DNA from: a virus
Taxonomy: Duplodnaviria; Caudoviricetes
Virus record (IMG/VR): IMGVR_UViG_3300028833_000067
Span: 112,888 to 176,887 of that record
DNA: 64,000 bases
Reading direction: 5' to 3' (one strand)
Shown here: one piece after another, positions 28,983-47,201 of the stretch
How positions within the stretch are numbered: the stretch's first letter is position 1
Layout: every line of letters starts with the position of its first letter
Position numbers and translations under genes: made by a program
The notes under the pieces: model-generated
Told to the model about the DNA's origin: nothing
The model's input: only the letters and a program-made list of their open reading frames with translations
Database searches by the model: none

Positions 28983-28989
28983 TAAATAT

Positions 28990-29018
28990 TTGACTTTTCA
29001 CAGAATTTAAGATATAAT
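28990..29018 (+). promoter_or_regulatory. sigmaA-type promoter for the RNA cluster
   Basis: TTGACT-N17-TATAAT. Confidence 0.65.
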
Positions 29019-29238: not shown

Positions 29239-29240
29239 AT

Positions 29241-29305
29241 TAGGCACGCGCAGCAAACTTTTTTTGAACAATTGTCTGCTAAACAATTAAGTTTATCGTG
29301 CCTAG
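29241..29305 (+). ncRNA. CAGCA-family RNA copy 1 (Ser-GCU anticodon-loop mimic)
   Basis: TAGGCACG/CGTGCCTA helix, CAGCAA, hairpin AATTGT-CTGCTAA-ACAATT. Confidence 0.6.
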
Positions 29306-29772
29306 TATTTCCCAATAGGGTAGCATGGATGAGCGCGAACTGAAGTGCTTGAGGGACAGGAACTACCATCTATAGGGCCTGTGAGTAAAGATAGATGGCG
29401 TGTGAGAGAAGGTAAACCTAGACTCCCCACTCAGCTAAACGGATTAGCAAAAGGTGTCGGCTAGGTCGCGGAATGGTTTTATCGGTTATACGACGGAGTG
29501 TGAAGGCAAATGGAAACCGAAGATAGCTATCGTTCACTGCTCGGAGAGACCGAGGATAAATAATCAAGCCCATTCTATGAAATGGTACGGCGCAAAGTTT
29601 TGGATGTTCTTCCAGCATTTGATCGGCGCATTATAAAAGAGGATTAAATCAAAGAATATTGTCCGAAAACCATAGGGAGGAATGGAGTTCCTCGGCGGCC
29701 AGTAAACTGCAATAAATGGTTCGATTCCATATGTGGCGTACCGATATGAAGTTCGGAGTAGGGCAATTTTAT

Positions 29773-29843
29773 GCGATTATAGTATAGTGGTAATACGCGG
29801 CCTTGCCAAGGCTGAATCACGAGTCCGAATCTCGTTAGTCGCT
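29773..29843 (+). tRNA. tRNA-Gly(GCC)
   Basis: Cloverleaf; loop TTGCCAA; U73; no CCA. Confidence 0.85.
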
Positions 29844-29847
29844 CTTG

Positions 29848-29967
29848 TAGACGTATCAGCAATCTTCTTTTGCATGTGAGAGCCCGTCAAGTGTTGGTTC
29901 AACTCCAACCCTCCCAACAGTTGGGAGGTCGCTCAATTGGCAGAAGCGCGGTTATAAGTACGTCTAG
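29848..29967 (+). ncRNA. CAGCA-family RNA copy 2 with permuted tRNA-like (YrlA-like) domain
   Basis: TAGACGTA/TACGTCTA helix, CAGCAA; T arm, then loop-closed acceptor stem, then D arm. Confidence 0.7.
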
Positions 29968-29973
29968 TTTTAT

Positions 29974-30046
29974 CGCACCTAGGACAAACAGTTAAGTCAC
30001 GGCGCTCATAACGCTTGAGGAATCGGTGCAACTCCGATAGGTGCTA
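29974..30046 (+). tRNA. tRNA-Met(CAT), possibly initiator-like
   Basis: Loop CTCATAA; C1:U72 mismatch; T loop TGCAACT. Confidence 0.7.
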
Positions 30047-30129
30047 CTCTCACCTTAGCAAAAGCGGTGACTAAACCGATGTGCGGCTAGCAACCTACTG
30101 CTATTTGGTGTATAAAGGAGGATGAATGA

Positions 30130-31833
30130 GTGAGAGCAGCAGTTTATAGTGGCACACGCAACATTTACGATAAAATGTTAATTGCGGCAAAATCTTTACT
30201 TATGCATTCAAATGTGGAAAAAATATATTTTCTTATTGAAGATGATTAGTATCCGTATGAGTTGCCAGAAGAAATAGAATGTATGAATATTAGCGGTCAA
30301 ACTTATTTTCCTAGTAGCGGCCCTAATTTTAATAATGTATGTACTTATATGGTATTAATTAGAGCCGCATATTCTAAAATATTTCCAGAATTAGATCGTA
30401 TTTTAAGTATTGACATGGATACCGTTGTTAATGAAAATATATCTGATTTATGGGATTTAGATTTAACAGATTATTATTTGGCCGCGGTTGAAGAATAGGA
30501 ACTATCAGAAAAAGAAGGCTCCTATATCAATATGGGTGTGGCAATGTTAAATCTAAAAAAAATTCGTGAAGATAAAAAAGATGATGAATTAATTAGTTCT
30601 TTAAATAATTATTGGTATAGATATAAAGAACAAGATTGTTTCAATGAAGTTTTTCGTGGAAATATTTTAATTTTACCAAGTGATTATAATGCGTGTATTT
30701 AGGCGGCTCCACCCAAACATGAGAAGATTACTCATTTTGCTGGACATTATGAATTAAATAAATTTCCTCATTTTAATTATTATAAAGAATTACCCATAGC
30801 TGAACTATAGAGAAATGTTCCAACACCAGTTACTTTAGATATTATTATTCCAACATATAAAAATAAAAAAGGATTAAGACGAACATTAAATTCTATTCCT
30901 TCTAATCCAAATGTTAATGTAATAGTAGTTGATGATGCATCAGAGTTAGATTATTCTGATATATTAATAGATTATCCTCAATTACATTTTTATTCATTAT
31001 CAATTAATCAAGGGCCAGGTATGGCTCGACAATATGGATTAGAACACAGTAATGGAATGTATATTACATTCCTTGATACTGGTGATTATTTTTATGAAAA
31101 TGGACTTCAAACTATATTAAATGCTATTAATGAAAATACATACATTAAACTATATACATTTTCTTATGTATATGATGATAGGAATATATTAAGTGATAGG
31201 CCAGATGATAAAACTATTGGGTCGGTATATAAACGTTCTTTTATTGAAATGTATAATATTCATTTTAGTAAAGAAGGTTCATACGCTAATGAGGATTATG
31301 GTTTTAGTCGTGCTTGTAAATTAATTTTAGATTAGTGGGAAAGATACCATTTTTCAGATGCTAGAAAGCATATAAAAATACCAGTATTTTATGAGCATAT
31401 TGATTCTCATTCTTTAACAAAAGCAAATAATGATGAATTTTTCTTTACCAAATTAAGTCCAGGAATTATTACAAATGGGATTCACGCAATCAATATCGCG
31501 CGAAAAGCGGGCATTAAAGAAGAATATTTAATAGAAGAATATAATTATATTATGGCTCAAGAATATTTCTTCTTTTTATGTATAATATAGGAACGTCCAG
31601 ATTTAGCTGATGATATATGGACAGTGATACGTAATTATTATTTAAATTGTTATCGTACGTATGAAAAATTTGCTTTACGAAATTTATCTACTTATTTCTC
31701 TTAGGTTAGTTTACCAAGAATTCGTAGTAGAATGAAGCGCTGGCCAAAAAATATTTCTTTTAATATTATGCGCTTTATTAAAGAATTACAAAATGAAGAA
31801 TTTACCCCAATTAGATATTTGACTTTAAATTAA
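30130..31833 (+). CDS. Fused glycosyltransferase GT8 + GT2
   Basis: ORFs 30262 and 31021 in frame via TAG; GT8 SIDMD, YINMGV, EQDCFN; GT2 IIIPTY, VVDD, FLDTGD. Confidence 0.8.
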
Positions 31834-31960
31834 ATTTAATGTATAATTATTATGTTGAGAGGGAGAAATTCCTCTTATATGGGTAGCGTTGGAGTCATGA
31901 CCAACGAGGTGAAGATGCTCCTATCATCGGCCATAATTTTAATTCATAGGAGGAATTATT

Positions 31961-32566
31961 ATGAGTAGAGCAGAAGATGTAAGTAATTATCGTAGAAGAA
32001 GAAAACAAAATCTTATTGAGGTTTTGGGTGGAAAATGTTAGATATGTGGTTTTGATTTATTTGCAGATGCATTAGAATTTCATCATGAAGACCCGACTAA
32101 AAAAGATTATGGAATTTCTTCAAAAGGGACTTGCCATGATATTGAAACTGACCTGAATGAAGTAAAAAAATGTTTTTTATTGTGTGCAAATTGTCATAGA
32201 GGAGTTCATAGTGGTTATTATGATGCTCCTACAGAACATATATTCAATAATGAATTAGCGCAAAGATTAATTAATGAACGCAATGATAAAATGACTGCTA
32301 AATTAAATTATTGTATTGATTGTCATTGTCAAATAGACTCTACAGCAACTCGCTGTCCAAGTTGTGCAGCAAAAGCCAGACGAGTTTGTGAAAGACCTTC
32401 ACGAGAAGAATTAAAGAAATTAATTCGCACATTACCATTTACTCAAATTGGAGAACATTTTGGCGTTAGAGATAATACAATACGTAAATGGTGTGATAAT
32501 ATGAATTTACCAAAAACTAAAAAAGAAATTAATTCTTACTCTGATGAAGAATGGGAAAAAATTTAA
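31961..32566 (+). CDS. HNH endonuclease with Zn-ribbon/HTH C-terminus
   Basis: AGGAGG RBS; KC(TAG=Q)ICG...LEFHH...LLCANCHRGVH. Confidence 0.8.
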
Positions 32567-32569
32567 TTT

Positions 32570-32598
32570 TTGACTTTCTTACAAAAATATACTATAAT
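32570..32598 (+). promoter_or_regulatory. sigmaA-type promoter
   Basis: TTGACT-N17-TATAAT. Confidence 0.6.
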
Positions 32599-32617
32599 AT
32601 ATTTGTAAGAAAGGTAT

Positions 32618-32735
32618 GGGAGATTCGCTAATCGGAATAGCACGCGGCTGGCCTGATACCAAAGAGATATAATAGGGGCAGGTCCTATATCAGACAATTA
32701 ACCGCGCCAGAGAGGTTCAACTCCTCTATCTCCCG
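32618..32735 (+). tRNA. tRNA-Asn(GTT) with a 47-nt insertion (32651-32697) in the anticodon loop
   Basis: Acceptor GGGAGAT/ATCTCCC + G73; D arm GCTA/TAGC; stem CGCGG/CCGCG; CTG|insert|TTAA; T arm AGAGG-TTCAACT-CCTCT. Confidence 0.75.
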
Positions 32736-32830
32736 CTCGTGCTTTGATGACCAAATGTAGCTTGGCAGTAAATAAACATTAATGCAGATGTGGGGTTATG
32801 ATGAAAGCCTTTACCTTAAAAGGCTATTAT

Positions 32831-32905
32831 GCCCTATTGGACAATCGGTTAAGTCACGTGCCCTTCAAGCACGAGGGCCCGGATCATCCCCGGGATAGGG
32901 TACCA
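32831..32905 (+). tRNA. tRNA-Glu(TTC), atypical T loop
   Basis: GCCCTAT/ATAGGGT-A-CCA; CGTGC-CCTTCAA-GCACG; T loop ATCATCC. Confidence 0.75.
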
Positions 32906-33161
32906 TTCAACCACATAAAGCCTGAATTGACAGGATATGACTGGCCAGTTGAGGTCTGGCGGCATACCCAGTGTGGACTTGTTGAAGCATTGGATATGTG
33001 TCTCGTGAGCGATGACAGCCGTGGTGAGGCAACTATGCCAAAAGAGTGATACTAAAATAGTAAGTGTGTGGAAAGGATGGATTCCCACTAACCTACGGGT
33101 AGCGCCCGCTTAGTCATTTAGTAGCACACTATAATAAAAAGACAACGAAAGTAAGTGGGTC

Positions 33162-33225
33162 AGGCGCATACAGCAAATTCTTATAAGATATTGATAATAT
33201 TTATGGCTACATTATTTGCGCCTAG
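33162..33225 (+). ncRNA. CAGCA-family RNA copy 3 (Ile-GAU anticodon-loop mimic)
   Basis: AGGCGCA/TGCGCCT helix, CAGCAA, AGATA-TTGATAA-TATTT. Confidence 0.55.
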
Positions 33226-33833
33226 TATTTTTGGTAGTATGCTAGAGCCATCGCGAGGAGAGTTATCTATAACATCCTACGTTCTACCATATGAGATGGC
33301 CACCGCCCCTGCGCTTCGGAAAGCGGTATATAAATTGGAGTAGGGCCACCCGCTATAGGGGATGGAGAAATATGTAGCTTGCGCTTTCGATGCACAGTGG
33401 CAGTAGCAAGTAAAAAATAGACCATCTGGCCGTGCAATAGAGCAGTAAAGTGTACGTTAAAGAATCGGATTCTGCTATGGGTTGTGTTTAATGAGCACGA
33501 TCTTCGTATATACTACGATCTCCAGTATGAGGAAAAACTACCGTTTGGATTGGTTGTAAGGCCATGGTCCACCCCTACGCCGGACACCGCTGAGACGTGC
33601 AGCAACCGCGCCGTAGATGAGTTTCTCTTGACTCTGGGATGTTCCCTAAATAAGAGCGGGATGAATATCCCGCAAATGGTCCCCGAGACAGTAAAGCTGG
33701 CGTTTCTAGAGCGCAAAGATAGTTCGCATACGGGGTTACATACTATCATAAGTACAGGAGCGATGAGCAGTTATTTCGCTTAATATTCGACTAGACCATG
33801 GACGCATGGCGGACAAATCCTGTATTTTTCTAT

Positions 33834-33916
33834 GCCCAAGTGGCGTAACGGCAGCCGCCAGGGACTTAAAATCCCTTGCTCGTATGAGCGTGCCGGTTCG
33901 AATCCGGCCTTGGGCA
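33834..33916 (+). tRNA. tRNA-Leu(TAA)
   Basis: Cloverleaf with long variable arm; loop CTTAAAA. Confidence 0.88.
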
Positions 33917-33966
33917 CTTTCCATTAGGTGGAGCTTGGAACCTACCGCCTTTTGGCTGTGATGTAC

Positions 33967-33996
33967 GGGACGTCATAATTTGGCGTCCCTATTTTT
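33967..33996 (+). terminator. Intrinsic terminator
   Basis: GGGACGTCA...TGGCGTCCC followed by TATTTTT. Confidence 0.65.
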
Positions 33997-34018
33997 AAAT
34001 CAAAAAGGAGGAATTTTT

Positions 34019-34393
34019 ATGAAGAAATTTATCGCACTACTAATAACTTTTATGCTATGTTTTTCTTTAACTTATGCAGAATAGACTGAAGACGTAATAA
34101 GTAAACCGCATTCTGAAACCGTAACAGTTCTGGCACCAAAAGGTGATTGGAGCGTAACCATCACTTCATCCTTAGATGGAAAAGAAAGTGTTATATCTGG
34201 TACAGAAGTAACTTTAACTGCGCACTTTTCTGGCAAGCGTGAAGGCGATACTTTACAGTATATTTGGCAAGAGCGCAAGAGTGAAAACGATAAGTGGAAG
34301 GAAATTGGTACAGATTCTACCGAATATAAATTTAATATTACAGCTGAAAATGTAACACATCAATGGCGAGTAATAGTTCGTGTGACTTGGTAA
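34019..34393 (+). CDS. Secreted Ig-like domain protein
   Basis: Signal peptide MKKFIALLITFMLCFSLTYAE; VTLTAH...YIWQ...W..I; one TAG. Confidence 0.7.
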
Positions 34394-34406
34394 GGAAGGT
34401 GGGAGT

Positions 34407-35720
34407 ATGAAGAAACTCATAGCATTCCTTTTATGCTTCCTACTAGGCTCCGTAAGCTATGCAGAAGAGTTAATTACTTCTGAATTATTTTTTACTAATA
34501 TACATATAATTCCAACATCGAATTATGTAGTAAAATAGTCTAATTTAAATGATTTTAGTATAGTAGCGTTACAAGATGCTACTATACAAGGTCATATTCG
34601 TGGCTCTCTTTGGGTTGGGGGAACTTTAAGAAGTGCTGATTGGATATTTGTAGATGATGGGTCTATCAATCATTCAGGCGCGAAAACCAGTTATATTTAT
34701 AACAATGAGTCCTCAATCCAATTTAAAAGTAGAACTAGCGAGCAGAGTAAATACGCATATAATGGATTAACAGATGAGGCGGTACATAAGACTACTAATT
34801 ATTGGATAAATATACTTGATAAATTAAAAGAGAGTAATTGTGTTTATATTGAGCCAGATAGTAATGGACATGCTGATATTGTAGGTTGGTCGACGCCTGG
34901 TATTACGCAATATCAGGCGCAGGGAAATGATGAAACAAAACAATCAAGTAATATTGTATATTGGACTGATGCTACATCAGTAACAATTGCAGGAATTATT
35001 GGGTTCGTTATAGCGCCAAAAGCAAATATAATAATACAATCTTCTAATAATAGAATTTCTGTAGTAGGTAAGACAGTAACAGTTAATTGGGCGGAATTAC
35101 ATGTAAATTATGGTATTCCTAATATTCCTACCCCAACTCCGTCTCCTACTCCAACTCTATCTCCTACCCCGACTCCAACTACAACTGCAACGCCTACTGC
35201 AACACCTACTTAGACATTTACTCCAACGCCTAAAATAACTAATAGTCCATCGCCAACTCCTACTAATAAAATACCAAGCCCAATATTAACTCCAGTTATT
35301 ACAATAGTAACAATTGTTACTTATACTCCATAGCCTAAAATTACTCCAACACCTACTACAACTTTAGTTAAAACAAATACACCACGACCAAGTTTAATTC
35401 CATTAACTCCAACTCCAACCCCAACTCCTAAAATTACTATAACTCCAACACCAACCCATACATCAACTCCTAAGATTACAAATACTCCATCTAATACTCC
35501 TATTATAACACCCAAACCAACCCCAACTTTTACCCCAAAAAAGACTCCATCTACACCTACTATTATACCTACTTCTACTCCTACCCCTACTATAACGCCT
35601 ACTATTGATCCAAAACGGATTCCAAAAAGACCTGGCATACCAATTCATATTATTAATGAATATGATACGCCACTAGGTTTAGAAATTATAATAAATCATG
35701 TAGGAGATTGTTTTGATTAA
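34407..35720 (+). CDS. Secreted surface protein: beta-rich N-domain, Thr/Pro mucin-like stalk, C-terminal YDTPLG...HVGDCFD motif
   Basis: Signal peptide [20 protein letters not shown]; PT repeats ~35125-35610; several TAG. Confidence 0.7.
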
Positions 35721-35842
35721 TGTATTTTATTATTCATACTTTGCTTGAAACAGATATAGGCTTAATTTTAGTAGGGCTTTTAATATTTATAGGACTAGTA
35801 GTAGAATTTTTAGATAACAATAATAATAGACCACAATTTTAA
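35720..35842 (+). CDS. Small membrane peptide
   Basis: TAATG coupling; single hydrophobic helix. Confidence 0.45.
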   Translation: MYFIIHTLLETDIGLILVGLLIFIGLVVEFLDNNNNRPQF

Positions 35843-35845
35843 TAT

Positions 35846-35874
35846 TTGACTTATAATAAAAATTTTGTTATAAT
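35846..35874 (+). promoter_or_regulatory. sigmaA-type promoter
   Basis: TTGACT-N17-TATAAT with TG extension. Confidence 0.65.
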
Positions 35875-36001
35875 ATTTATGTTGAAAGGGAAACTGAGTA
35901 AAAGTCCTTTACAGTTTGGCGCCATCCCAGTTAGGACTCTAAACTGAACTGTTGTAAGACCGCCGCCCAGCTTAGGGGATGTAAAATATACTAAGCAATA
36001 T

Positions 36002-36074
36002 GCTTCCATAGCTCAACTGGCAGAGCAATACTCTTGTAAAGTATAGGTTGTAAGTTCGATTCTTACTGGGAGCT
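36002..36074 (+). tRNA. tRNA-Thr(TGT)
   Basis: Cloverleaf; loop CTTGTAA. Confidence 0.88.
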
Positions 36075-36326
36075 CTATACCAACGGACAAGGCTTTGGCG
36101 CATGACAATATCAGCGAAGAGGGAGCGTAAGCGTTATTAACCTATAAGTGATATTGAACAGGGCGGTGGGACGCGAGTGGTTGGTAATTTATAGCAGAAG
36201 GCGCGGCAGTATAGCACCCTGAAAGGACAAAACCATTACAATATTCTGCTTATTATATGGAACTAATCTATCCGGAGTTCCTGCGGTTCAAGGATAGGGT
36301 TTGCGGCACCTTAGACCGCATCATAT

Positions 36327-36400
36327 GCCTCTCTAATCCAACTGGAAGAGATAGCACGCTTAGAACGTGTACAGTGTAAGTTCAAATCTTACGAGAGGTA
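36327..36400 (+). tRNA. tRNA with TAG (Leu) anticodon, short variable loop
   Basis: GCACG-CTTAGAA-CGTGT; 5-nt variable region; A73. Confidence 0.8.
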
Positions 36401-36620
36401 CGATTGTTGTTCAGCTGACAACCCAGTGGATGGATTTGACGCATCCCGTGCTACTACTGCGAGAGGGTTCACGCCTAGGCTTTGCATGCGGACCACGGCC
36501 CATGAAGGTAGCACATTATATCATCTCTCTTGGCGTATGGCAAGACCGAAAGGATAGAAGCTTGGGTTGGTACCAGATTCCGTTATAACAAGAGCCCACG
36601 GGAAAGAGATGGTAATATTA

Positions 36621-36693
36621 CTCTCCGTAAGCTAACTGGATAAACTCCAACGCTACGAACGTTGCATTGAAGGATCGTACCCTTCCGGGGAGA
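36621..36693 (+). tRNA. tRNA-Arg(ACG), atypical T loop
   Basis: CAACG-CTACGAA-CGTTG; T loop ATCGTAC. Confidence 0.8.
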
Positions 36694-36736
36694 CTTCGCG
36701 CGAAAAGCGCAAATTCATTTTGGAGGTACCTATAAT

Positions 36737-37276
36737 ATGAATGAACCAAGACTAAAGATTCTTCCCCCATGGACGATTCTAGTAAGGAAGCTAGAGGCTC
36801 TATTTGATGGTGACCCTCAGATTGCTTTCAATGTTGACTTTAGCGGCGAGCATCCATCTGTTGTTCTTTCCTGTAATAATGGAGACAAAGTTGCTGCACT
36901 AATGCAGATTCTACCTGAAGAAATTAACTTTGGCAATGTTACATTAAAGGTAATGGTTGATGGCACGCCTAGCAATCGCGCCTTTAAGAGCAAGGTTGAA
37001 CTATTTAGTACTGCTTTTGCTAAGAATCCTGCCTATGCGTATTCTGTATGCCCCGCAGAAGAGGGCTATCAGTGGATTGGTACTACTTATGTTGTATTTA
37101 ATAATTGTGTAGTACAGTTCGCGGCTGATAATCTAAATGACTGTCATGGAGTAATTAGTACTCTATATGAGACAATTGCCAGCGAGCTTCTAACTGGACC
37201 CGCAACTGAAGGTGTATTCTTTAATACTAATGTTGAACGCGCGGGACTTGGGATGCCGCTTGGGGAGTGGCCGTAA
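36737..37276 (+). CDS. Hypothetical protein
   Basis: GGAGG RBS; 179 aa; no TAG. Confidence 0.75.
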   Translation: MNEPRLKILPPWTILVRKLEALFDGDPQIAFNVDFSGEHPSVVLSCNNGDKVAALMQILPEEINFGNVTLKVMVDGTPSNRAFKSKVELFSTAFAKNPAYAYSVCPAEEGYQWIGTTYVVFNNCVVQFAADNLNDCHGVISTLYETIASELLTGPATEGVFFNTNVERAGLGMPLGEWP

Positions 37277-37569
37277 TTTAATATTTTGAGAATAGGTGCT
37301 TTCGTAACGAATCAAGGATATGGTAAGAGTGCAGTTTGACGAGCTGTACCAAAAGACTTGGGCGCCAAAAGGCAGAAGTTAAATGGTATTGAAAACCAGC
37401 CTATTCCGCCGAGATGTCGGTAGTAGCAAATATTCATACGCGAGTAAATGCAAACATCATAAATCCTACAATAGCCAGCGATAGCATGGACGCTATGGAC
37501 GCCCTTTAAAGTTGTTCGCGGTAGTGAGAATAACCTTCGCCGTGGCGAAGTAAAAGAGCCACGGAATAT

Positions 37570-37642
37570 GCGCCATTAGCTCATCTGGTAGAGCACAGCA
37601 CTTTTAATGCTGGCGTGCGGAGTCCGAGTCTCCGATGGCGCA
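37570..37642 (+). tRNA. tRNA-Lys(TTT)
   Basis: Cloverleaf; loop CTTTTAA. Confidence 0.88.
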
Positions 37643-37709
37643 CTAATAATTGACATTAAATAAAATTTATAGTATAATTATTTCAGTAAGAAGGAAAGGA
37701 AGTAAGAAT

Positions 37710-37940
37710 ATGAGAGATCCAAATCGTATTGATAGGTTTTGTGATGAGCTTAAAGCGATTTGGCATCAAGTGCCAGATTGGCGCTTTGGGCAACTCATGG
37801 AAAATATGCTTAGTGCAAGGCTACAAGCAGTACAAAATCCCAATGGTTTCTTTTATACTGAAGATGAAGAATTGTTTGCCTTCTTTGAAAGCTATATAAA
37901 AGAAATTGTAAAAGATGGCAGACAAAATAAAGATTGGTAA
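37710..37940 (+). CDS. Small phage protein (MRDPNRID...PDWRFGQL family)
   Basis: Promoter 37650-37678; AGGA RBS. Confidence 0.7.
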   Translation: MRDPNRIDRFCDELKAIWHQVPDWRFGQLMENMLSARLQAVQNPNGFFYTEDEELFAFFESYIKEIVKDGRQNKDW

Positions 37941-38146
37941 TAACTAATCCACCTGACATGGCTGTGACTACAAGGCGCGGAAAGGTGGCGGCAATCTCTA
38001 GCCCAAGCAAGTTGAAACGATATACACCCTTGGGATGAAAGCTCAACACAGAGCAGAGCGAGATATAACGTGAGTTTTATATACATATGTATGTAGTCGG
38101 TCTCCCTGTGGCCCGTTACGTTATAGGTTGGCACAGGGGAAGCTTC

Positions 38147-38223
38147 CGGGCATTGGCGCAATCGGTTAGCGCGCAGACCTGATAAGTCTGAGGTTTCTGG
38201 TTCGATTCCAGAATGCCCGACCA
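38147..38223 (+). tRNA. tRNA-Ile(GAT)
   Basis: Cloverleaf; loop CTGATAA; CCA. Confidence 0.9.
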
Positions 38224-38313
38224 CCGAGGCGGGAAGCTCAAAGATACGTGGATGGCCAACACGGTCGTGCGAGTAAAATCCAGCGCAAATAGCCCGTAGG
38301 ATCCTCGGGCCAT

Positions 38314-38459
38314 AGGAGAATCATATAACGGTAGTATGGCGGTCTCCGGGGCGATAGTGTAAAGAACACACTAGGAAAGCAAGGACCTAGTAATTGAAGG
38401 GCAGTACTGAGGCGCTCCACCAAAAACCGTTCGTCCTGGTTCAAATCCAGGCTCTCTTG
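38314..38459 (+). tRNA. tRNA-Trp(CCA) interrupted by a 75-nt tRNA-like insert (38348-38422)
   Basis: AGGAGAA/CTCTCTT + G73; GCGGT-CTCC|insert|AAA-ACCGT; T arm CCTGG-TTCAAAT-CCAGG. Confidence 0.78.
38348..38422 (+). ncRNA. Nested degenerate tRNA-Ala-like RNA
   Basis: GGGGCG/CGCTCC-A-CCA with G3.U70; D arm GTGT/ACAC; stem CTAGG/CCTAG; weak T stem with GGCAGTA loop. Confidence 0.7.
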
Positions 38460-38463
38460 CTTA

Positions 38464-38527
38464 AAGACTCGTCAGCAACATTTTTCAAGCATCTAATTGT
38501 TAATTTGACTAGCTATAAACGAGTCTT
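38464..38527 (+). ncRNA. CAGCA-family RNA copy 4 (Asn-GUU anticodon-loop mimic)
   Basis: AAGACTCG/CGAGTCTT helix, CAGCAA, TCTAA-TTGTTAA-TTTGA. Confidence 0.55.
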
Positions 38528-38534
38528 GTTTTAT

Positions 38535-38608
38535 ACCCTACTACCCCAATTGGCAGAGGGAACTGACTCAAAATCAGTAAAGTCTCGGTCCGAATCCGAG
38601 GTGGGGTA
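38535..38608 (+). tRNA. tRNA with CAA (Leu) anticodon, short variable loop
   Basis: ACTGA-CTCAAAA-TCAGT; 5-nt variable region; A73. Confidence 0.8.
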
Positions 38609-39008
38609 CTATTTAAACCGAGTGTCTGGGGCCTTCTTCGCTCTTTTCCCAGCCGAAACGCACAAAGACTCCTGCGTCTGAGCGAGGCGGAAGTGGAGTT
38701 GCCGGGTTTACATCCCTGCGGTTTACCGGCTATTTTATACTTATCTGATTTAAGCCCAGTATACTAAAGCGATATAACTTTTATGGGCTTCGTGCAATAA
38801 GATAAGTATTGCGCCAAGAGATTTAAAGGTTATGCATTGAGGCGCGCTGAGCGAGCTCCAGCTCACATTATTAAACAATTTATTGGAGCATGATTGGTGA
38901 ATAGAGTGCGATCGGTAACACTGTAAATAATTCCGGAAGTAATAGCACAGGTTAGAGTCGCCGGACCTCTGTTAATTGGGGCGAAAACACCATCCAAAGT
39001 GCTGTTAT

Positions 39009-39079
39009 GGGGATATAGTATAACAGTAAAACAGTAGCTTTGCAAGCTTCAGACCGGGGAGCGTCACCCCGTATCTCCA
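39009..39079 (+). tRNA. tRNA-Ala(TGC), atypical T loop
   Basis: GGGGATA/TATCTCC with G3.U70; loop TTTGCAA; T loop AGCGTCA. Confidence 0.8.
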
Positions 39080-39100
39080 CTTCATTTAGGAGGACTATAT

Positions 39101-39397
39101 ATGAAATATAAAGTAATTACATTATGTGGTTCAACGCGCTTTAAGGAAGATTTTGAACGTATTAATCGAGAACTTACACTTTAGGGCAATATAGTAATTA
39201 GTGTTGGTTGTTTTGGCCATGCCGGAGATGTATTTACAGAAGAGTAGAAAGAAATGCTCGATGATATCCATAAGCGTAAGATTGATATGGCTGATGAGAT
39301 CTTCGTTATTAATAAAGGTAAATATATTGGCACAAGTACCCGTAATGAAATTGAATATGCAATTTTGCATGATAAACCAGTGAGGTATATGGAATAA
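39101..39397 (+). CDS. DUF4406/nucleoside deoxyribosyltransferase-like fold protein
   Basis: ITLCGSTRFK...ELTL(Q)GNIVIS...HKRKIDMADEIFVIN...YIG.ST..EI; two TAG. Confidence 0.7.
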
Positions 39398-39422
39398 TTT
39401 ATATCAGATGGAGTTGATGTGT

Positions 39423-39728
39423 ATGCGTAATCGTGCAGAAAAGCGTCATAATGATTGGAAAAAGGCTATTCGTAAGCGTCGTATTGATCGAGAAACGCAA
39501 GGTACTTCTTTATTTTCCCATGATACTTTTGAATATTTACATCAATATTCTAAAGGGCATTGGGCTTGTGGTTGTGGCATGTGTAAACGATATAATAAGA
39601 CCAATAATCGTGGACGGAAACGGAAAATTCATGGTAATTATGCGCCATCTAAAAATTGGTCAGTACAAGATGAACGCCGTATCGAAGAAATGGAAGATCA
39701 AATACTTGACAATGAACAAGATTTCTGA
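39423..39728 (+). CDS. Basic hypothetical protein with CxCxxC
   Basis: GGAG RBS; ORF track. Confidence 0.65.
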   Translation: MRNRAEKRHNDWKKAIRKRRIDRETQGTSLFSHDTFEYLHQYSKGHWACGCGMCKRYNKTNNRGRKRKIHGNYAPSKNWSVQDERRIEEMEDQILDNEQDF

Positions 39729-39843
39729 TATAATTATTATAGAAAAAGGGAGATAAGATATACATAAGAGGCAACTTGATAGAGTTTGTTGCAAAACATT
39801 AAATAGTAAACATCTCCTTTCTCGCGGCGAAAGCCGCATTTAT

Positions 39844-39918
39844 CGGGGCGTAGCTCAGTTTGGCTAGAGCGGGTGGTTTGGGACCATCAGGTCGCGTGTT
39901 CGAATCGCGTCGCCCCGA
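39844..39918 (+). tRNA. tRNA-Pro(TGG)
   Basis: Canonical cloverleaf; loop TTTGGGA. Confidence 0.9.
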
Positions 39919-39922
39919 CTTA

Positions 39923-39987
39923 TAGGCCATTACAGCATAATCATATTTAAATGGAAAGAATAATTGCATATTATTAAAATGGCCTAG
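39923..39987 (+). ncRNA. CAGCA-family RNA copy 5 (Cys-GCA-like loop)
   Basis: TAGGCCATT/AATGGCCTA helix, CAGCAT, AATAA-TTGCATA-TTATT. Confidence 0.5.
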
Positions 39988-40104
39988 TATTTAAATATTC
40001 GCGCTTCGGCGTAAATAGATTACCGCGTTGGGATCCGTATAGGTGAAAAGCCCTATTTGAAAGAGGCGGAGTAGTATCCGCAACTCTTCCGCGGCGTTTT
40101 TAAT

Positions 40105-42573: not shown

Positions 42574-42631
42574 ATTTGACTTTTAACTAAAATTAATGTA
42601 TAATTTTTATATAAGAAAAGGAGTTGATATT

Positions 42632-43099
42632 ATGCCGATTTTGTATATTCTCTGCGGACCGAGTGGATGCGGAAAAACTACCTGGGCTATGAATTTTATG
42701 AAAGAACATGATAATATTCATTATGTATCTCGGGATGAAATTCGTTTTGAATTGGTAAAACCCGATGAGAGTTATTTTTCGCGCGAAAAAGAAGTCTTTC
42801 GGTGCTTTGCTAATACCATTCGGCATACTCTTGTTGATGGCTTTGATTGTATTGCCGACGCCACTCACTTAAATGAATTTTCGCGTCGTAAGCTAACACA
42901 AGCAATTGATATGTATTTTAAAGATTATGAAATTGTTTATGTTAGTTTTAATGTAAGCGCAGATACATGTATTGAACATAACGCCAATCGTGAAGGCAGG
43001 GCGAATGTGCCTGAAACTGTAATTCGTAATATGTGCCGTGATTTTAGAACTCCTTCTATTGAAGAAGATGAACGTGTGAAAGAGGTAATTGAAGTATGA
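42632..43099 (+). CDS. P-loop polynucleotide kinase (AAA_33, Pnk-like)
   Basis: GPSGCGKTT, SRDEIR, DATHL...R motifs; promoter 42576-42604. Confidence 0.8.
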   Translation: MPILYILCGPSGCGKTTWAMNFMKEHDNIHYVSRDEIRFELVKPDESYFSREKEVFRCFANTIRHTLVDGFDCIADATHLNEFSRRKLTQAIDMYFKDYEIVYVSFNVSADTCIEHNANREGRANVPETVIRNMCRDFRTPSIEEDERVKEVIEV

Positions 43100-43716
43100 G
43101 CGAGATTTTCTTCACGAGTGATACTCATTTCGGGCACCAGCCCGAGTTCCTTTGGAAGCCTAGAGGTTTTTCTTCTGTAGAAGAAATGGATGAAGCCATT
43201 ATTGAAAATTGGAATAAAGTAGTAAAACAAGGAGATATAGTATATCATCTTGGAGATACTATGCTCAACGATAATGTACATGGACTTGAATGTTTCAAGC
43301 GGTTAAATGGACAGATTTTTCTTATCTACGGAAACCATGATACTAATGCTAGAAATAATTTGCTTTTTACAGATGACCGTACCATACATAAAATGCTCGG
43401 CGGCTGGTATGCTTGGCTTATTAAATATGGTAAACTTTCCATTTACATGAGCCACTATCCCACGCTTACAAGCAATTATGATCAGAAACACTTCAGCCAG
43501 CATGTACTGAGCCTTCACGGGCACACTCATCAGAAAACAAATTGGCTTGACCCGAAAAACCCCTTTCTTTATCATGTTGGCCTAGACTCCCATAATAATA
43601 CGCCAGTTCATATTGATGAAGTAATCACAGATATTCGTCAGCGTTGGGAAGAAATTGGGCGTCTGCCAGTACCAGTTCAGCCGCAAGATACTTATCCATA
43701 TACTTCTATTATTTGA
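43096..43716 (+). CDS. Calcineurin-like metallophosphoesterase
   Basis: SDTHFGH, LGD, GNHD, HGHTH. Confidence 0.88.
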   Translation: MSEIFFTSDTHFGHQPEFLWKPRGFSSVEEMDEAIIENWNKVVKQGDIVYHLGDTMLNDNVHGLECFKRLNGQIFLIYGNHDTNARNNLLFTDDRTIHKMLGGWYAWLIKYGKLSIYMSHYPTLTSNYDQKHFSQHVLSLHGHTHQKTNWLDPKNPFLYHVGLDSHNNTPVHIDEVITDIRQRWEEIGRLPVPVQPQDTYPYTSII

Positions 43717-44002: not shown

Positions 44003-45493
44003 ATGAACAAACTACTAAAGAATCTAAAAACTGAAACCAATTATACTCATACTGAAAATGGCGCCCTTACTCATAAGTCGACCCTTAATAAGGTGCTGGA
44101 TATGTTTGCTATGGGCGGTTCTATGCGGAATCGCTCGGACGATGACGTTATTAATATGTTCAAGCAGGCATACGAAGAGAATAAGACTCTCGCACTAAAG
44201 TGCCTCTTCTATATGCGCGATATACGTGGTGGCGCAGGCGAGAGACGTTTTTTCCGCATTTGCATCAAGTGGCTCGCTAATGAGTATCCAGAAGAGATGG
44301 AGCACCTAATTCCTTTCATTAGTGAATATGGCCGCTATGATGATCTTTTTGAGCTATTTGATACTCACTGCGAAGCCGCGATGATGGGATATATCTTTCA
44401 TGTTCTTAATAAGAATGAAGATCATCTTATTTATAAATGGATGCCTTCGATCAACGCATCTTCTAAAGAAAGCAAGATTCGTGGGCGTAAATTCGTGCGT
44501 GAATTTGGCATGACAGAGCGTCAGTATCGTCAGATGCTTTCTGAAGGTCGTAAAGCTTGCCATCTGGTTGAAACTCTTATGAGCCAGAATCAGTGGGATC
44601 AGATTGCGTTTGATCATCTGCCTTCTCGCGCAGGACTTCTTTATAAGAATGCCTTCATGCGCCGTGAAGAAACTAAAGAGCGCTATGCTGAATTTATGTC
44701 CCGCAAGGACGCTAAAGTAAATGCAAGTGTATTGAATCCTGTCGAAATCGCGCACCAGATTCTCAATACATGGCGCACTCCCTCTGCTACTGAACGTCAG
44801 GCTTGGCAGAAGTATTGGGATAATCTAAAAGATTATTACAATGGCCGCGAAGAGCCTGGCATCGCAGTAGTTGATGTAAGTGGTAGTATGAATGGCACTC
44901 CTATGGAAGCCGCAGTTTCTATGGGCGCGTATATTGCCGAACGTGGAAAAGGCCCGTTCCAGAACCACTTTATTACCTTTAGTGCTAATCCACAGCTTGT
45001 AGAATTCGAAGGCGTGGATATTTATGACAAGTTTAAGCGCGCAATAGAAGCAGACTGGGGACAGAATACGAACCTCGAAGCAGTATTTGATATGCTGCTG
45101 GAGACTGGTCTACGTAATCATGTGCCAGACGCTGAAATGCCTAAAACAATTTACATATTTTCAGATATGGAATTTGATGACGGCTTGACTTGCGGCGCAC
45201 GTACCACTGATCGTTGGGGACGCGTTCATTCGATGAATCGCTCACAGATTGATACACTCATTGAAGCCAAAACTAAAGAGTGGATGCGGGCAGGATATAC
45301 AGTACCAAGAGTAATCTTTTGGAATCTTGACGCTCGTCAGCCTAATATTCCAGCTATTGGCCCGGGGTTCTCTTATTGCAGTGGTTTCTCTATGAGTGCG
45401 CTTGAAGGAGTACTCTCTGGTAAAGATGGCGTCGAAATGATGCGAACTGTACTAGAAGGAGAGCGCTATGCGCCAATTTCTAGTGTTCTATAA
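44003..45493 (+). CDS. DUF2828 family TROVE-like + vWA protein (Ro60-related architecture)
   Basis: TENGA, RDIRGGAGER, YGRYDDL, KWMPS; vWA MIDAS DVSGSM, NTNL..VF, SDMEFD, IFWNL. Confidence 0.8.
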   Translation: MNKLLKNLKTETNYTHTENGALTHKSTLNKVLDMFAMGGSMRNRSDDDVINMFKQAYEENKTLALKCLFYMRDIRGGAGERRFFRICIKWLANEYPEEMEHLIPFISEYGRYDDLFELFDTHCEAAMMGYIFHVLNKNEDHLIYKWMPSINASSKESKIRGRKFVREFGMTERQYRQMLSEGRKACHLVETLMSQNQWDQIAFDHLPSRAGLLYKNAFMRREETKERYAEFMSRKDAKVNASVLNPVEIAHQILNTWRTPSATERQAWQKYWDNLKDYYNGREEPGIAVVDVSGSMNGTPMEAAVSMGAYIAERGKGPFQNHFITFSANPQLVEFEGVDIYDKFKRAIEADWGQNTNLEAVFDMLLETGLRNHVPDAEMPKTIYIFSDMEFDDGLTCGARTTDRWGRVHSMNRSQIDTLIEAKTKEWMRAGYTVPRVIFWNLDARQPNIPAIGPGFSYCSGFSMSALEGVLSGKDGVEMMRTVLEGERYAPISSVL

Positions 45494-45580: not shown

Positions 45581-46480
45581 ATGTGGACAGAAGATGAAAT
45601 TTTAGCTATTCCAGATAAAGGCATAGATTGCCGAGGAATAACATATCAAAGAGTCTCTTTATCTTCTCGTATGGAAGATTAGAGCGGTATTATACATGGA
45701 CGTTTATTACCATTATTTCCGATATTAAAACCTAATACTAATAAAAAAGAATGGTTGTGCTTATGCTCATGTGGTAATATAAAAGTAGTAAATAGTTCTA
45801 ATCTAAAGTCTGAAAAAATTACTAGTTGTGGTTGTTTACGCTCTGAAACTACTGCCAATCATATTACTGCGATTAACCATGCTAGAAAAGAAGATTTTAC
45901 TGGTAGAACTATAAAAGACTTATATGTTTTAGAACTAGATAAGGAAATGTCATTTACTCATTCTCAAAATGGGTCAATACATTATTATTGGAAGTGTCAA
46001 TGTACTAATTGTAATAATATTATGTCATTACGCGTTGATACTCTAAAAGATACCAAAAGAGTTTATTGTCGTTTTTGTAATGCCACCAAGTCAGTAGGCG
46101 AAATATTAATTAGAAATCTATTATTACAGAATAATATTCCTTTTACAGAAGAACAAACATTTTCCAATTGTATTTTTCCAGACACTAAAGCTAAAGCTAA
46201 ATTTGATTTTTATGTCAATAATCAATATTTAATAGAGTATGATGGAACTCAACATTTTAGAGCCTCAAGTATGTTTCCTGATATTAGTAAAATTCAAGAA
46301 CATGATTATATAAAGAATTTATGGTGCTATCAGAATAATATACCACTAATTAGGATTCCGTATAGTCATGTAGAAAATATAAAAATAGAAGACTTACGGC
46401 TTGAGACAACTCAGTATAGAATGGAGTATGAAAATGGAAGATTTATTATCAAAAGTAAAGCAACATCACTTTATTGTTAA
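45581..46480 (+). CDS. Homing-type endonuclease (Cys clusters + PD-(D/E)XK/DUF559-like domain)
   Basis: WLCLCSCG...SCGC; FDFYV...IEYDGTQH...LIRIPY; extended through one TAG. Confidence 0.7.
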
Positions 46481-47201
46481 AAAACATTTACCCGAAACCA
46501 GCCCCGTAATGACGGTATTAATAGGTTCGAACAATTATGAATTAGATACTCCCGAAAGTGATGTAGATACTTTTACATTTGTCTTTCCTAGTTTTAAGGA
46601 TATGGCGTTCGCGCGCGATCCTATCAGTGGAGAAGTTGAGGTAGCCGATGGAAAATGTATGTATAAAGATATTCGTCTTGCTCTAAATCTGCTCAAGAAG
46701 ACTTCTCCTAATAGTCTTGAATGCTTTGCTAGTAAGCATCGTTATTATGAGCCAAAATATGCTAGTATTTTAACAAAGTATTTAGATAATGAAAATACAC
46801 TAAATAAAATGGTTCATTGCAACTATGAACATATGCTTTACGCAATGGCGGGAATGGCTCATTAGCTTACTAAACGCAATATGTCCGCAGGAAAACGTTA
46901 TTCACACGCGCTACGGCTTTATAGTATGAAAGATAACTTCTTAAATTTTACAGATACTTTTCAGCTGCTTAAACTCTTACCGCGCGATTATCAAGAGGCA
47001 CTTCATGCAAAGCGTGATACTATGGAGTCGCATGATGCATACTACAATGATGGATGCGTAAGTATTGCAAATATTCTAGACGATTGCCGTGATAAATTTA
47101 AAAAGACTTCTATTCAGCATGCAATTGAAATAGAAGGCTTTAAACTAATTGAAGAAATGCAACAAGAATTGATGCATTACTATATTAAATATATTTTATA
47201 A
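46428..47201 (+). CDS. Pol-beta-superfamily nucleotidyltransferase (RlaP/YcgL-like)
   Basis: GSNNYELDTPESDVD; ORFs 46401 and 46881 joined through TAG. Confidence 0.7.

What the first reader, a model, noticed from the sequence alone, without database searches (positions are those of the whole stretch)
29241..39987. Five-copy small-RNA family (helix + CAGCA) presenting anticodon stem-loop mimics
Seen: copies at 29241-29305, 29848-29967, 33162-33225, 38464-38527 and 39923-39987 share one scaffold. It is a 7-9 bp closing helix starting AGRC whose sequence differs while pairing is kept, then 1-2 nt, CAGCA(A), a U/A-rich linker, a payload, the 3' strand ending in YCT, and a T-rich tail. Four payloads are 5-6 bp hairpins with 7-nt loops shaped like anticodon loops: CUGCUAA (Ser), UUGAUAA (Ile), UUGUUAA (Asn), UUGCAUA (Cys-like). 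The fifth is a tRNA elbow. Four copies start 4-5 nt or fewer after a tRNA 3' end, so tRNA processing would release them. Inference: a modular tRNA-decoy family. The constant part may bind a protein, with the Ro60-like DUF2828 protein at 44003 as candidate, and the variable part may bait host anticodon nucleases or tRNA enzymes. I know of no description of this family.
Basis: partly seen in the sequence, partly recalled or inferred. Interest (0 to 1): 0.9.

Follow-up and report, generated by a model that had tools for sequence, protein, structure and literature searches.

The report
Partner RNAs of phage Ro60-like protein
Five small RNA genes in this phage's tRNA cluster share one conserved "handle" and each carries a different piece of tRNA; they are most likely the RNA partners of the phage's Ro60-like ring protein, a widespread branch of the Ro60/Y-RNA system that I did not find in Rfam or in the papers searched.

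Summary
Exactly five elements in the 176.9-kb phage genome share a closing stem (W-AGRC-N4 / N4-GYCU-W), then 0-2 nt, then CAGCA(A), a variable insert and a WGUWUU tail. All five lie on the tRNA strand. About 60 further copies occur in over 20 metagenomic phage contigs, and the stem shows strong compensatory change.

The inserts are tRNA parts. Some are anticodon-arm look-alikes (loops YU-NNU-AA). Copy 2 is a permuted T-arm/acceptor-hairpin/D-arm body with the YrlA layout. Relatives carry T arms or near-complete tRNA bodies.

The DUF2828/vWA protein at 44003-45493 is predicted to fold like Ro60; its ten best PDB matches are all Ro60/TROVE. Handle RNAs lie next to the DUF2828 gene in 8 of 9 cultured phage lineages checked.

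My best reading, at about 0.65, is that these are Y-RNA-like partner RNAs of a Ro60-like protein, released by tRNA processing. The gene sits in an RNA-repair gene island. The decoy function is plausible but untested.

None of the copies reaches an Rfam threshold (YrlA, Class I, tRNA). The handle resembles Dictyostelium Class I RNAs (UUACAGCAA). This scan has already reported the same RNA-protein pairing on other genomes. I rate it a new variant of a known kind.

The parts
29241..29311 (+). Handle RNA copy 1. Stem UAGGCACG/CGUGCCUA, then CG, then CAGCAA. A second helix AACUU/AAGUU encloses a 6-bp hairpin with loop CUGCUAA. Tail GUAUUUC.
   Evidence: Model R1 scores it 59 bits. It starts 2 nt after tRNA-Ile(UAU), which includes CCA.
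29848..29973 (+). Handle RNA copy 2 (YrlA-type). Stem UAGACGUAU, then CAGCAA, a V region, a T arm (GUUGG-UUCAACU-CCAAC), an 8-bp closed acceptor-like hairpin, a D arm, and the 3' strand.
   Evidence: The best Rfam match is YrlA at 17.5 bits, E 0.17, covering the T-AS-D part only. It starts 3 nt after tRNA-Gly and ends 7 nt before the Rfam-only tRNA(CAU) at 29974-30046.
33161..33231 (+). Handle RNA copy 3. 7-bp stem AGGCGCA/UGCGCCU, then UA, then CAGCAA. Hairpin with loop UUGAUAA (5 bp), or a 7-bp stem with a 3-nt loop.
   Evidence: R1 scores it 51.1 bits. It is not next to a tRNA: 255 nt of GC-rich, ORF-less RNA follow tRNA-Glu.
38464..38534 (+). Handle RNA copy 4. Stem AAGACUCGU/ACGAGUCUU, then CAGCAA directly. 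Anticodon-arm look-alike UCUAA-UUGUUAA-UUUGA with a central U.U.
   Evidence: R1 scores it 68.7 bits. Three nt upstream is the 3' half of a tRNA-Trp-like gene. tRNA-Leu(CAA) starts 7 nt after it.
39923..39993 (+). Handle RNA copy 5. Stem UAGGCCAUU/AAUGGCCUA, then A, then CAGCAU. Payload has UGGAAAGAAUAA and a hairpin with loop UUGCAUA.
   Evidence: R1 scores it 66.1 bits. It starts 3 nt after tRNA-Pro(UGG).
44003..45493 (+). DUF2828 + DUF7788 (vWA) protein, predicted to fold like Ro60. Proposed protein partner of the handle RNAs.
   Evidence: Pfam hits PF11443 at 2.8e-25 and PF25043 at 6.4e-41. AlphaFold model with pLDDT 73. The ten best Foldseek PDB matches are all Ro60/TROVE, E 1e-7 to 7e-4, over the full length. 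No Pfam TROVE match anywhere in the genome.
42596..43716 (+). P-loop kinase (AAA_33) and calcineurin-like phosphoesterase, a polynucleotide kinase/phosphatase-like pair just upstream of the DUF2828 gene.
   Evidence: AAA_33 9.5e-22, Metallophos_2 2.1e-9.
46401..47201 (+). RlaP-family (RNA-repair-pathway Pol-beta) nucleotidyltransferase.
   Evidence: PF10127 at 1.9e-5, 25 bits against a cut-off of 23.
49807..51024 (+). RNA ligase (PF09414 plus the PHA02142 OB fold).
28990..29018 (+). Sigma-70-like promoter match (TTGACT-17-TATAAT) upstream of the unit that holds copies 1 and 2. Similar matches at 32570, 37650 and 39706 precede copies 3, 4 and 5.
   Evidence: These are consensus matches only; expression is not shown.

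Best explanation
The five elements are genes for Y-RNA-like small RNAs.

Inferred steps. They are transcribed with the tRNAs from sigma-70-like promoters. They are cut out when RNase P and the 3'-end tRNA nucleases process the neighbouring tRNAs. This would leave RNAs of about 65-125 nt with a short 5' leader and a 6-9 nt U-rich 3' tail. The constant handle is the binding site for the phage's Ro60-like ring protein (DUF2828 + vWA, 44003-45493). The handle is a 7-9 bp terminal stem with conserved AGRC/GYCU, single-stranded CAGCAA next to its 5' strand, and WGU after its 3' strand. The variable module is built from tRNA parts: an anticodon arm, a T arm, or a T-acceptor-D body. It presents a tRNA-like surface to tRNA-binding proteins. 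It either tethers them to the ring, as Y RNA tethers PNPase to Rsr, or titrates them. The gene island around the protein (kinase, phosphoesterase, RlaP, RNA ligase) points to tRNA/RNA damage surveillance or repair during infection.

Shown here: the family, its covarying stem, the tRNA-like payloads, the tight spacing to tRNAs, the Ro60-like predicted fold, and the conserved placement of handle RNAs beside DUF2828 genes.

Not shown: transcription, processing, binding and function.
For: (1) The family is real and structured.

(2) The layout is that of Y RNAs. Copy 2 and 12 relatives have the order V, T arm, closed acceptor hairpin, D arm inside a terminal stem, and 16 of 21 predicted pairs show compensatory change. 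This is the YrlA order (PMC4201824). Rfam YrlA is the best match for copy 2. A close relative's copy aligns over the whole YrlA model at 34.9 bits, E 2.7e-6 in a 231-nt search.

(3) The protein is Ro60-like by predicted fold.

(4) Co-occurrence. Of 10 contigs found through the RNA pattern alone, 8 encode a DUF2828 homologue, including all 5 that are at least 90% complete. Of 5 contigs with only chance pattern matches, none does. My one-sided Fisher test gives about 0.007.

(5) Conserved neighbourhood in distant cultured phages. Stem + N0-3 + CAGCAA elements lie on the same strand right beside the DUF2828 gene in Mycobacterium phage Zakai (3), E. coli phage CL1 (4), Listeria WIL-1 (3, with no tRNAs annotated nearby), Bacillus Thrax1 (5), Campylobacter CP81 (2), Fusobacterium Fnu1 (1), Synechococcus B3 (2) and Vibrio R10Z (1). 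That is 8 of 9 lineages, against 0.3-0.85 chance hits per 9-13 kb locus in shuffles.

(6) Precedent: a phage Ro60 binds two phage-encoded Y-like RNAs and recruits host PNPase (PMC12135203).

(7) Spacing fits release by tRNA processing. Of 62 copies, 23 start 2-6 nt after a tRNA and 15 end 5-9 nt before one.
Against: No copy reaches the YrlA gathering score of 69 bits. The YrlA 5' motif GNCGAAN0-1G is absent, and only G-R-C lines up with it. In this genome the RNAs lie 4-15 kb upstream of the gene rather than next to it. The metagenomic co-occurrence is confounded by relatedness. One lineage (Staphylococcus phage Alsa_4) showed no handle under my criteria, and one fragmentary contig with a 33%-identical DUF2828 gene had none. 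The protein matches Pfam DUF2828, not TROVE. The fold comparison rests on a model with pLDDT 73 and TM-scores of about 0.5.
Confidence: 0.65

Rival explanations
1. The RNAs are decoys against tRNA-targeting host defences, with or without the Ro60-like protein. The anticodon-arm look-alikes bait anticodon nucleases or tRNA-modifying enzymes and so spare real tRNAs. This can coexist with the best explanation, as its effector function.
For: Loops of the form YU-NNU-AA are strongly enriched: 9-10 of 36 short payloads against 0.08-0.22 in shuffles. Positions 34/35 change between close relatives while U33, U36, A37 and A38 stay. Copy 4 reads GUU here and UUU in a relative whose DUF2828 protein is 93% identical. 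All 4 differences between those two 76-nt elements fall in the 17-nt arm, two of them compensatory; by my arithmetic the chance of that is (17/76)^4, about 0.0025. An RNA healing and sealing gene set lies next door. From general knowledge, Lys(UUU)- and Asn(GUU)-type loops are classic anticodon-nuclease targets.
Against: No nuclease or target is identified. Only about a third of short payloads are anticodon-like. Copy 5's orthologues and several distant handles carry other motifs. Variation at positions 34/35 can equally be neutral drift at unconstrained positions.
Confidence: 0.2
2. The elements are processing or insulating spacers of the tRNA operon. They would be stable hairpins that keep neighbouring tRNAs folding independently or that guide RNases, and would have no function once released.
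For: Fixed short distances to tRNA ends. Location only inside tRNA arrays in this phage clade.
Against: Conserved single-stranded CAGCAA and AGRC/GYCU across phages of Actinobacteria, Firmicutes, Proteobacteria and Cyanobacteria hosts. In Listeria WIL-1 and Fusobacterium Fnu1 the handles lie beside the DUF2828 gene with no tRNA annotated within 6 kb. The T-loop, D-loop and acceptor-hairpin features of the payloads are conserved with covariation. Most tRNA junctions have no such element.
Confidence: 0.08
3. The elements are decaying tRNA pseudogenes or DNA-level inverted repeats (mobile-element ends or recombination sites), with no RNA function.
For: The payloads are plainly tRNA-derived. Some relatives keep a near-complete tRNA body: L103 4411-4475 matches positions 5-66 of the tRNA model at 52 bits.
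Against: The stem sequence differs between copies within one genome while pairing is kept. G-U pairs occur but not A-C. Strand bias is strict. The family is conserved across very distant phages. There is no reverse transcriptase in the genome, so it is not a retron.
Confidence: 0.03

Closest known systems
Bacterial and phage Y RNAs bound by Ro60/Rsr: YrlA and YrlB (Rfam RF02553; Chen et al. 2014, PMC4201824) and Thermus phage phiLo Yrl1/Yrl2 with phiRo60 (PMC12135203)
   Same: The 5' and 3' ends pair in a terminal stem. A short conserved motif sits on the 5' side next to that stem. There are several paralogues per genome with different effector modules. One paralogue carries a permuted tRNA body in the order V, T arm, closed acceptor hairpin, D arm. 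The RNAs are encoded near a Ro60-fold protein and RNA-repair genes. Rfam YrlA is the best, though sub-threshold, match for copy 2 and for a relative's copy.
   Different: The conserved motif is AGRC...CAGCAA, not GNCGAAN0-1G or CGAA. The protein belongs to Pfam DUF2828/DUF7788 rather than TROVE. There are five to seven paralogues spread through a tRNA array. The payloads include isolated anticodon-arm and T-arm mimics and near-complete tRNA bodies. No copy reaches the Rfam threshold.
Dictyostelium Class I RNAs (Rfam RF01414; Aspegren 2004; Kjellin et al. 2021, PMC7919456; search pattern GTTGRCCTTACAGCAA...GTCAACTG in PMC5054030)
   Same: About 60 nt long. A short covarying stem joins the 5' and 3' ends. 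The RNA starts A-A-G and ends C-U-G-U, against W-A-G and C-U-W-G-U here. Next to the 5' strand is a conserved motif ending (U)UACAGCAA. The remainder is variable. Genes are clustered and multi-copy. The Rfam Class I model gives a sub-threshold match to a mycobacteriophage handle: 20.9 bits, E 0.15 in 331 nt.
   Different: The Rfam model does not match any of the five copies of this genome. The stem is longer here, and CAGCAA follows it after 0-3 nt rather than about 5. Class I RNAs are eukaryotic, have their own promoters, and their known direct binder is the RRM protein Rnp1A. Whether dictyostelids have a DUF2828 protein was not tested here.
Stable small RNAs co-transcribed with phage tRNA genes (T4 species 1 and 2, rnaC/rnaD; from my own knowledge, not checked here)
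   Same: Small stable RNAs of unknown function that lie inside a phage tRNA operon and are released by tRNA-processing enzymes.
   Different: As far as I know they have no shared handle and no reported Ro60-like partner. No sequence comparison was made.

Membership tests
YrlA (Rfam RF02553) | Covariance-model score at or above the gathering score of 69 bits | tested here: not met
   Copy 2 scores 17.5 bits, E 0.17, over model positions 30-81 only. There was no match at E<=5 in the 15.5-kb scan. A relative, L028:18395-18505, scores 34.9 bits over the full model.
YrlA (Rfam RF02553) | tRNA-like module in the order (V) - T arm - closed acceptor stem-loop - D arm, enclosed by a stem formed from the RNA's two ends | tested here: met
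   Met for copy 2 and for 12 homologous copies; 16 of 21 pairs show compensatory change and the cmscan alignment agrees. Not met by copies 1, 3, 4 and 5, which would correspond to YrlB-type short Y RNAs.
YrlA (Rfam RF02553) | 5' motif GNCGAAN0-1G (the proposed Ro60 contact) | tested here: not met
   The handle reads W-AGRC-N4-(N0-2)-CAGCAA. Only G-R-C lines up with G-N-C in the cmscan alignment.
YrlA / Y RNA | Encoded near a Ro60 orthologue and bound by it | tested here: inconclusive
   The Ro60-fold DUF2828 gene lies 4-15 kb downstream on the same strand. Handles are directly adjacent to the gene in 8 of 9 cultured lineages. Binding cannot be tested with these tools.
Dictyostelium Class I RNA (Rfam RF01414) | Covariance-model score at or above 41.5 bits | tested here: not met
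   The best matches in the whole genome score 12.6 bits or less and none lies on the five copies. There was no match in an 86-nt scan of copy 4.
Dictyostelium Class I RNA (Rfam RF01414) | Terminal stem plus adjacent 11-nt motif (T3, C6, C9, A10, A11; CCUUACAGCAA), about 60 nt, ending CUGU | tested here: inconclusive
   CAGCA(A) is present in all five copies; UUACAGCA is present in copy 5; four copies are 63-64 nt; the ends read CUAGU or CUUGU. The spacing between stem and motif differs.
tRNA (Rfam RF00005) | Complete cloverleaf scoring at least 29 bits, with free acceptor ends | tested here: not met
   None of the five copies is called by ARAGORN or by Rfam at the gathering score. Copy 2 gives 12.2 bits for the T arm only.
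Ro60 / TROVE proteins (for the proposed partner) | Helical-repeat ring plus a vWA domain | tested here: met
   The predicted model matches 9kop, 9l5y, 2nvo, 1yvr and 9nen over about 520-590 aligned columns, E 1e-7 to 7e-4, TM about 0.3-0.5. A vWA domain is seen by Pfam as DUF7788, with a weak VWA_2 match. The model's mean pLDDT is 73.
Ro60 / TROVE proteins (for the proposed partner) | Match to Pfam TROVE (PF05731) | tested here: not met
   No TROVE match in the genome. The protein matches DUF2828. A sequence search of the PDB found nothing relevant.
Retron ncRNA | Cognate reverse transcriptase in the genome | tested here: not met
   No RVT_1 match in the 98%-complete genome.

The most novel reading that the evidence does not exclude
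The CAGCAA-handle RNAs would be the universal RNA partners of DUF2828-type Ro-like proteins in phages, giant viruses and cells, and Dictyostelium Class I RNAs, unexplained for twenty years, would be the eukaryotic members of the same family. In phages the ring-plus-handle particle would display fast-evolving anticodon-arm baits. These would capture host anticodon nucleases, or hand broken tRNAs to the neighbouring kinase, phosphatase and ligase. The bait triplet (GUU against UUU between near-identical phages) would be tracking the host's defence repertoire.
Probability: 0.1. Interest if true: 0.9.

Novelty: new variant of a known kind. Interest (0 to 1): 0.66.

Why it matters
Ro60/Y-RNA particles are known in animals, some bacteria and a few phages, but the RNA partners of the much larger DUF2828 branch have not been described in the sources I searched. 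That branch has 709 cultured phage records with a homologue and over 6,000 metagenomic proteins at E<=1e-5 among the 8,000 best candidates scored.

If the handle RNAs are those partners, three things follow. Many phage "intergenic" stretches, and some features now annotated as tRNA or pseudo-tRNA, become RNA genes; examples are the feature annotated tRNA-Thr in Zakai and possibly the tRNA-Pseudo-GCA feature next to a handle in Synechococcus phage B3. A modular way of displaying tRNA parts comes into view. And there is an entry point for asking how large phages guard or repair tRNAs during infection.

Cultured model phages of E. coli, Mycobacterium smegmatis and Bacillus carry the same pairing, so the idea can be tested directly. 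The likeness to Class I RNAs, if it reflects homology, would give those RNAs a candidate protein partner.

Tried and rejected
- Retron reading (closing repeats plus an AGC-type branch site): rejected, because there is no reverse transcriptase in the genome.
- Promoter or terminator reading: none of the five copies contains a strong sigma-70-like match or a terminator-like site.
- Rfam membership: no match at gathering scores. Only sub-threshold YrlA matches were found, and there was no Class I match on the window's copies.
- Megablast of the region against GenBank phages found nothing.
- A PDB sequence search with the protein gave only chance matches to aspartokinase.
- The ESM Atlas feature search returned only DUF2828 clusters and said nothing about eukaryotic members.
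- No supplementary files of Chen et al. 2014 are held, so I could not check whether their mycobacteriophage ET08 YrlA has a CAGCAA handle.
- Literature searches for DUF2828 and for 'Ro-like RNA-binding protein' found no paper on the RNA partner.
- There is no handle over the start of the DUF2828 gene in this window.
- MAFFT misaligned CAGCA where the spacer length differs, so I used model-based realignment.

Full report
**Setting.** The window is the last 64 kb of a 176,887-bp phage contig that is 98% complete. Long genes are open only if TAG is read as a sense codon. The stretch 29-41 kb holds 13 ARAGORN tRNAs plus two seen only by Rfam. Between them lie GC-rich stretches without ORFs. Rfam also finds the cow-rumen-4 RNA and a sub-threshold cow-rumen-3 match.

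**The observation.** They share this plan:
- a closing pair W-W;
- A-G-R-C on the 5' strand paired with G-Y-C-U on the 3' strand;
- three to four further variable pairs;
- 0-2 unpaired nt, then CAGCA(A);
- an insert;
- the tail W-G-U-W-U-U after the 3' strand.

A script that asked only for a helix followed by CAGCA found 64 places in the genome, and only these five have the conserved ends. A covariance model of the stem (R1) finds these five and nothing else at E<=1 in the whole genome. The word ACAGCAA by itself is not enriched.

**Relatives.** Using the neighbouring DUF2828 protein I fetched eight related IMG/VR contigs. Using an RNA-only pattern I fetched more. After a pairing filter this gave about 60 distinct copies in over 20 contigs, usually 2-7 per contig and always among tRNAs.

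On 42 model-aligned copies the stem is 90.5% paired, and 8 of 9 pairs carry changes on both sides. The covariation score is 0.586, against 0.156 in shuffles (0 of 500) and 0.13 or less for slid partners. That alignment is fitted to the model, which favours the structure. The orthologous series ACUCGU/ACGAGU, ACUCAU/AUGAGU and ACCUGU/ACAGGU is visible in the raw sequences too. G-U pairs occur without A-C pairs, and each locus shows a single orientation. Both point to RNA rather than DNA structure.

**Payloads.** The inserts are pieces of tRNA.
- *Anticodon-arm look-alikes.* Of 36 short payloads, 12-13 have a stem of at least 4-5 bp with a 7-nt loop YUNNNRN (shuffles 0.9-2.3, maximum 6). Nine or ten read YU-NNU-AA (shuffles 0.08-0.22). 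The triplets seen are GUU, UUU, GAU, GCU and AUU, and more rarely UCC and AAC.
- *Permuted tRNA bodies.* These have a T arm, a closed acceptor-like hairpin and a D arm. Copy 2 and 12 others are of this kind, and 16 of 21 consensus pairs show compensatory change.
- *Near-complete tRNA-Ile(GAU)-like bodies lacking the outer acceptor stem.* L103 4411-4475 matches tRNA model positions 5-66 at 52 bits.
- *T-arm-only payloads*.

Within one orthologous slot the payload can change class. Copy 5 has lost the T arm that its orthologues carry. What it shares with them, and with handles of very distant phages, is a GGAUAAAAGAAA-like motif.

Copy 4 and its orthologue in a phage whose DUF2828 protein is 93% identical differ at four positions. 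All four lie in the 17-nt arm, and two of them are compensatory.

**Spacing.** Of 62 copies, 23 begin 2-6 nt after a tRNA 3' end and 15 end 5-9 nt before a tRNA 5' end. In the window this holds for copies 1, 2 and 5, and for copy 4, which follows the 3' half of an interrupted tRNA-Trp. Sigma-70-like promoter matches precede each unit, and none of the copies looks like a promoter or terminator. Release by RNase P and 3'-end processing is therefore plausible, but it is an inference.

**The protein.** The ORF at 44003-45493 matches Pfam DUF2828 and DUF7788, a vWA-type domain. An AlphaFold model built from 18 homologues has pLDDT 73. Its ten best PDB matches are all Ro60/TROVE proteins, aligned over the full length. 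They include the Ro60 of Thermus phage phiLo, Deinococcus Rsr, and Xenopus and human Ro60. There is no canonical TROVE gene in the genome. Around the gene lie a P-loop kinase, a phosphoesterase, an RlaP nucleotidyltransferase and an RNA ligase, which together look like an RNA healing and sealing set.

**Link between RNA and protein.**
- *Metagenomic contigs.* Of ten contigs found through the RNA alone, eight encode a DUF2828 homologue, and all five complete ones do. The two misses are fragments estimated at 7% and 54% complete. Five control contigs that matched the pattern only by chance have none.
- *Cultured phages.* DUF2828 homologues occur in 709 GenBank phage records. In nine lineages I looked at 4-6 kb on each side of the gene. 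Eight have stem + N0-3 + CAGCAA elements on the gene's strand, immediately beside it. They are Zakai, CL1, WIL-1, Thrax1, CP81, Fnu1, B3 and R10Z (one element, doubtful, because its 3' strand lies inside the coding sequence). Shuffled loci give 0.3-0.85 hits each. In WIL-1 and Fnu1 no tRNA is annotated within 6 kb, so the constant companion of the handle is the DUF2828 gene, not tRNAs.
- *The mycobacteriophage protein.* It is annotated 'Ro-like RNA binding protein', and Pfam places it in DUF2828, not TROVE. The RNAs next to it are unannotated or called tRNA.

**Comparison with known families.**
- *Y RNAs.* The plan matches Y RNAs, and YrlA in particular (PMC4201824): a terminal stem, a conserved 5'-side motif and a variable effector module, with one paralogue carrying a permuted tRNA. 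Phage Ro60 is known to bind phage Y-like RNAs (PMC12135203). Rfam YrlA is the best match for copy 2 (17.5 bits) and aligns end to end with a relative's copy (34.9 bits). Both are below the gathering score of 69, and the GNCGAA motif is replaced by AGRC...CAGCAA.
I checked it. The published pattern is GTTGRCCTTACAGCAA...GTCAACTG. The family is about 60 nt, with a covarying end stem, an AAG start and a CUGU end. The Rfam Class I model gives 20.9 bits on a mycobacteriophage handle but nothing on this genome's copies. It is a real resemblance and an untested homology.

**Verdict.** The decoy function is neither shown nor excluded. I read the elements as Y-RNA-like partner RNAs of a Ro60-like protein, at confidence 0.65. 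They are a new variant of a known kind and are not catalogued in Rfam. Earlier reports of this scan describe the same handle-RNA/DUF2828 pairing on other genomes. What this window adds:
- a case where the RNAs are spread through a tRNA array 4-15 kb from the gene;
- statistics for the anticodon-arm payloads;
- a comparison between close relatives that shows change concentrated in the mimic arm.

Noticed in passing
window 24548-35720 and elsewhere: Long ORFs are open only if TAG is read as a sense codon. Examples: 24548-27361 with 13 in-frame TAGs, 30130-31833 with 7, and 52672-54723 with 19. The phage uses a recoded amber codon.
   Followed up: partly
window 27398-27464 and 33479-33573: Rfam cow-rumen-4 RNA above threshold (57.6 bits). 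A cow-rumen-3 match just below threshold (79.2 against 86.7 bits) lies inside the GC-rich stretch after copy 3.
   Followed up: no
window 29306-29772, 32906-33160, 33232-33833, 36076-36326, 36402-36620, 37277-37569, 37941-38146, 38224-38460, 38610-39008, 39994-40270: ORF-less stretches of about 45-47% GC, in a genome of about 30-37% GC, fill the gaps between tRNAs. They look like large structured RNAs. Apart from cow-rumen-3 they match no Rfam family.
   Followed up: no
window 32618-32752: A tRNA-like sequence: acceptor strands GGGAGAU/AUCUCCC, a D arm, a T arm GAGAGGUUCAACUCCUCU, and about 55 extra nt between the two strands of the anticodon stem. Neither ARAGORN nor Rfam calls it.
   Followed up: no
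window 38381-38460: The 3' half of a tRNA-Trp (CCA anticodon region, T arm, acceptor strand) aligns with the intact tRNA-Trp of relatives, but the 5' part is displaced by extra sequence. The tRNA-Trp gene here is interrupted.
   Followed up: partly
window 29974-30046 and 39009-39079: Two tRNAs found by Rfam (36.8 and 46.1 bits) but not by ARAGORN. The first has a CAU anticodon loop.
   Followed up: no
window 42596-51024: An RNA-repair-like gene island around the DUF2828 gene: AAA_33 kinase, calcineurin-like phosphoesterase, RlaP nucleotidyltransferase and RNA ligase with a PHA02142 OB fold.
   Followed up: partly
L103:4376-4490, L067:11911-12034 (-), L091:456-578: In other phages the same handle encloses a near-complete tRNA-Ile(GAU)-like body (D arm, anticodon arm, T arm) that lacks the outer acceptor stem. 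The handle can therefore take the place of either the anticodon arm or the acceptor stem.
   Followed up: partly
window 39945-39960; L153:7881-7976; L152:5430-5479; L154:5622-5679: A purine-rich motif, (U)GGAUAAAAGAAA-like, recurs in one handle-RNA subtype from this phage, E. coli phage CL1, mycobacteriophage Zakai and Listeria phage WIL-1. It may define a conserved short subtype.
   Followed up: no
L152:5492-5562 (Zakai); L159:7830-7939 (Synechococcus phage B3): In Zakai a handle RNA is annotated as tRNA-Thr (tRNA-Asn in two related phages). In Synechococcus phage B3 a handle lies right beside a feature annotated tRNA-Pseudo-GCA. Elsewhere the handle RNAs are not annotated at all.
   Followed up: partly
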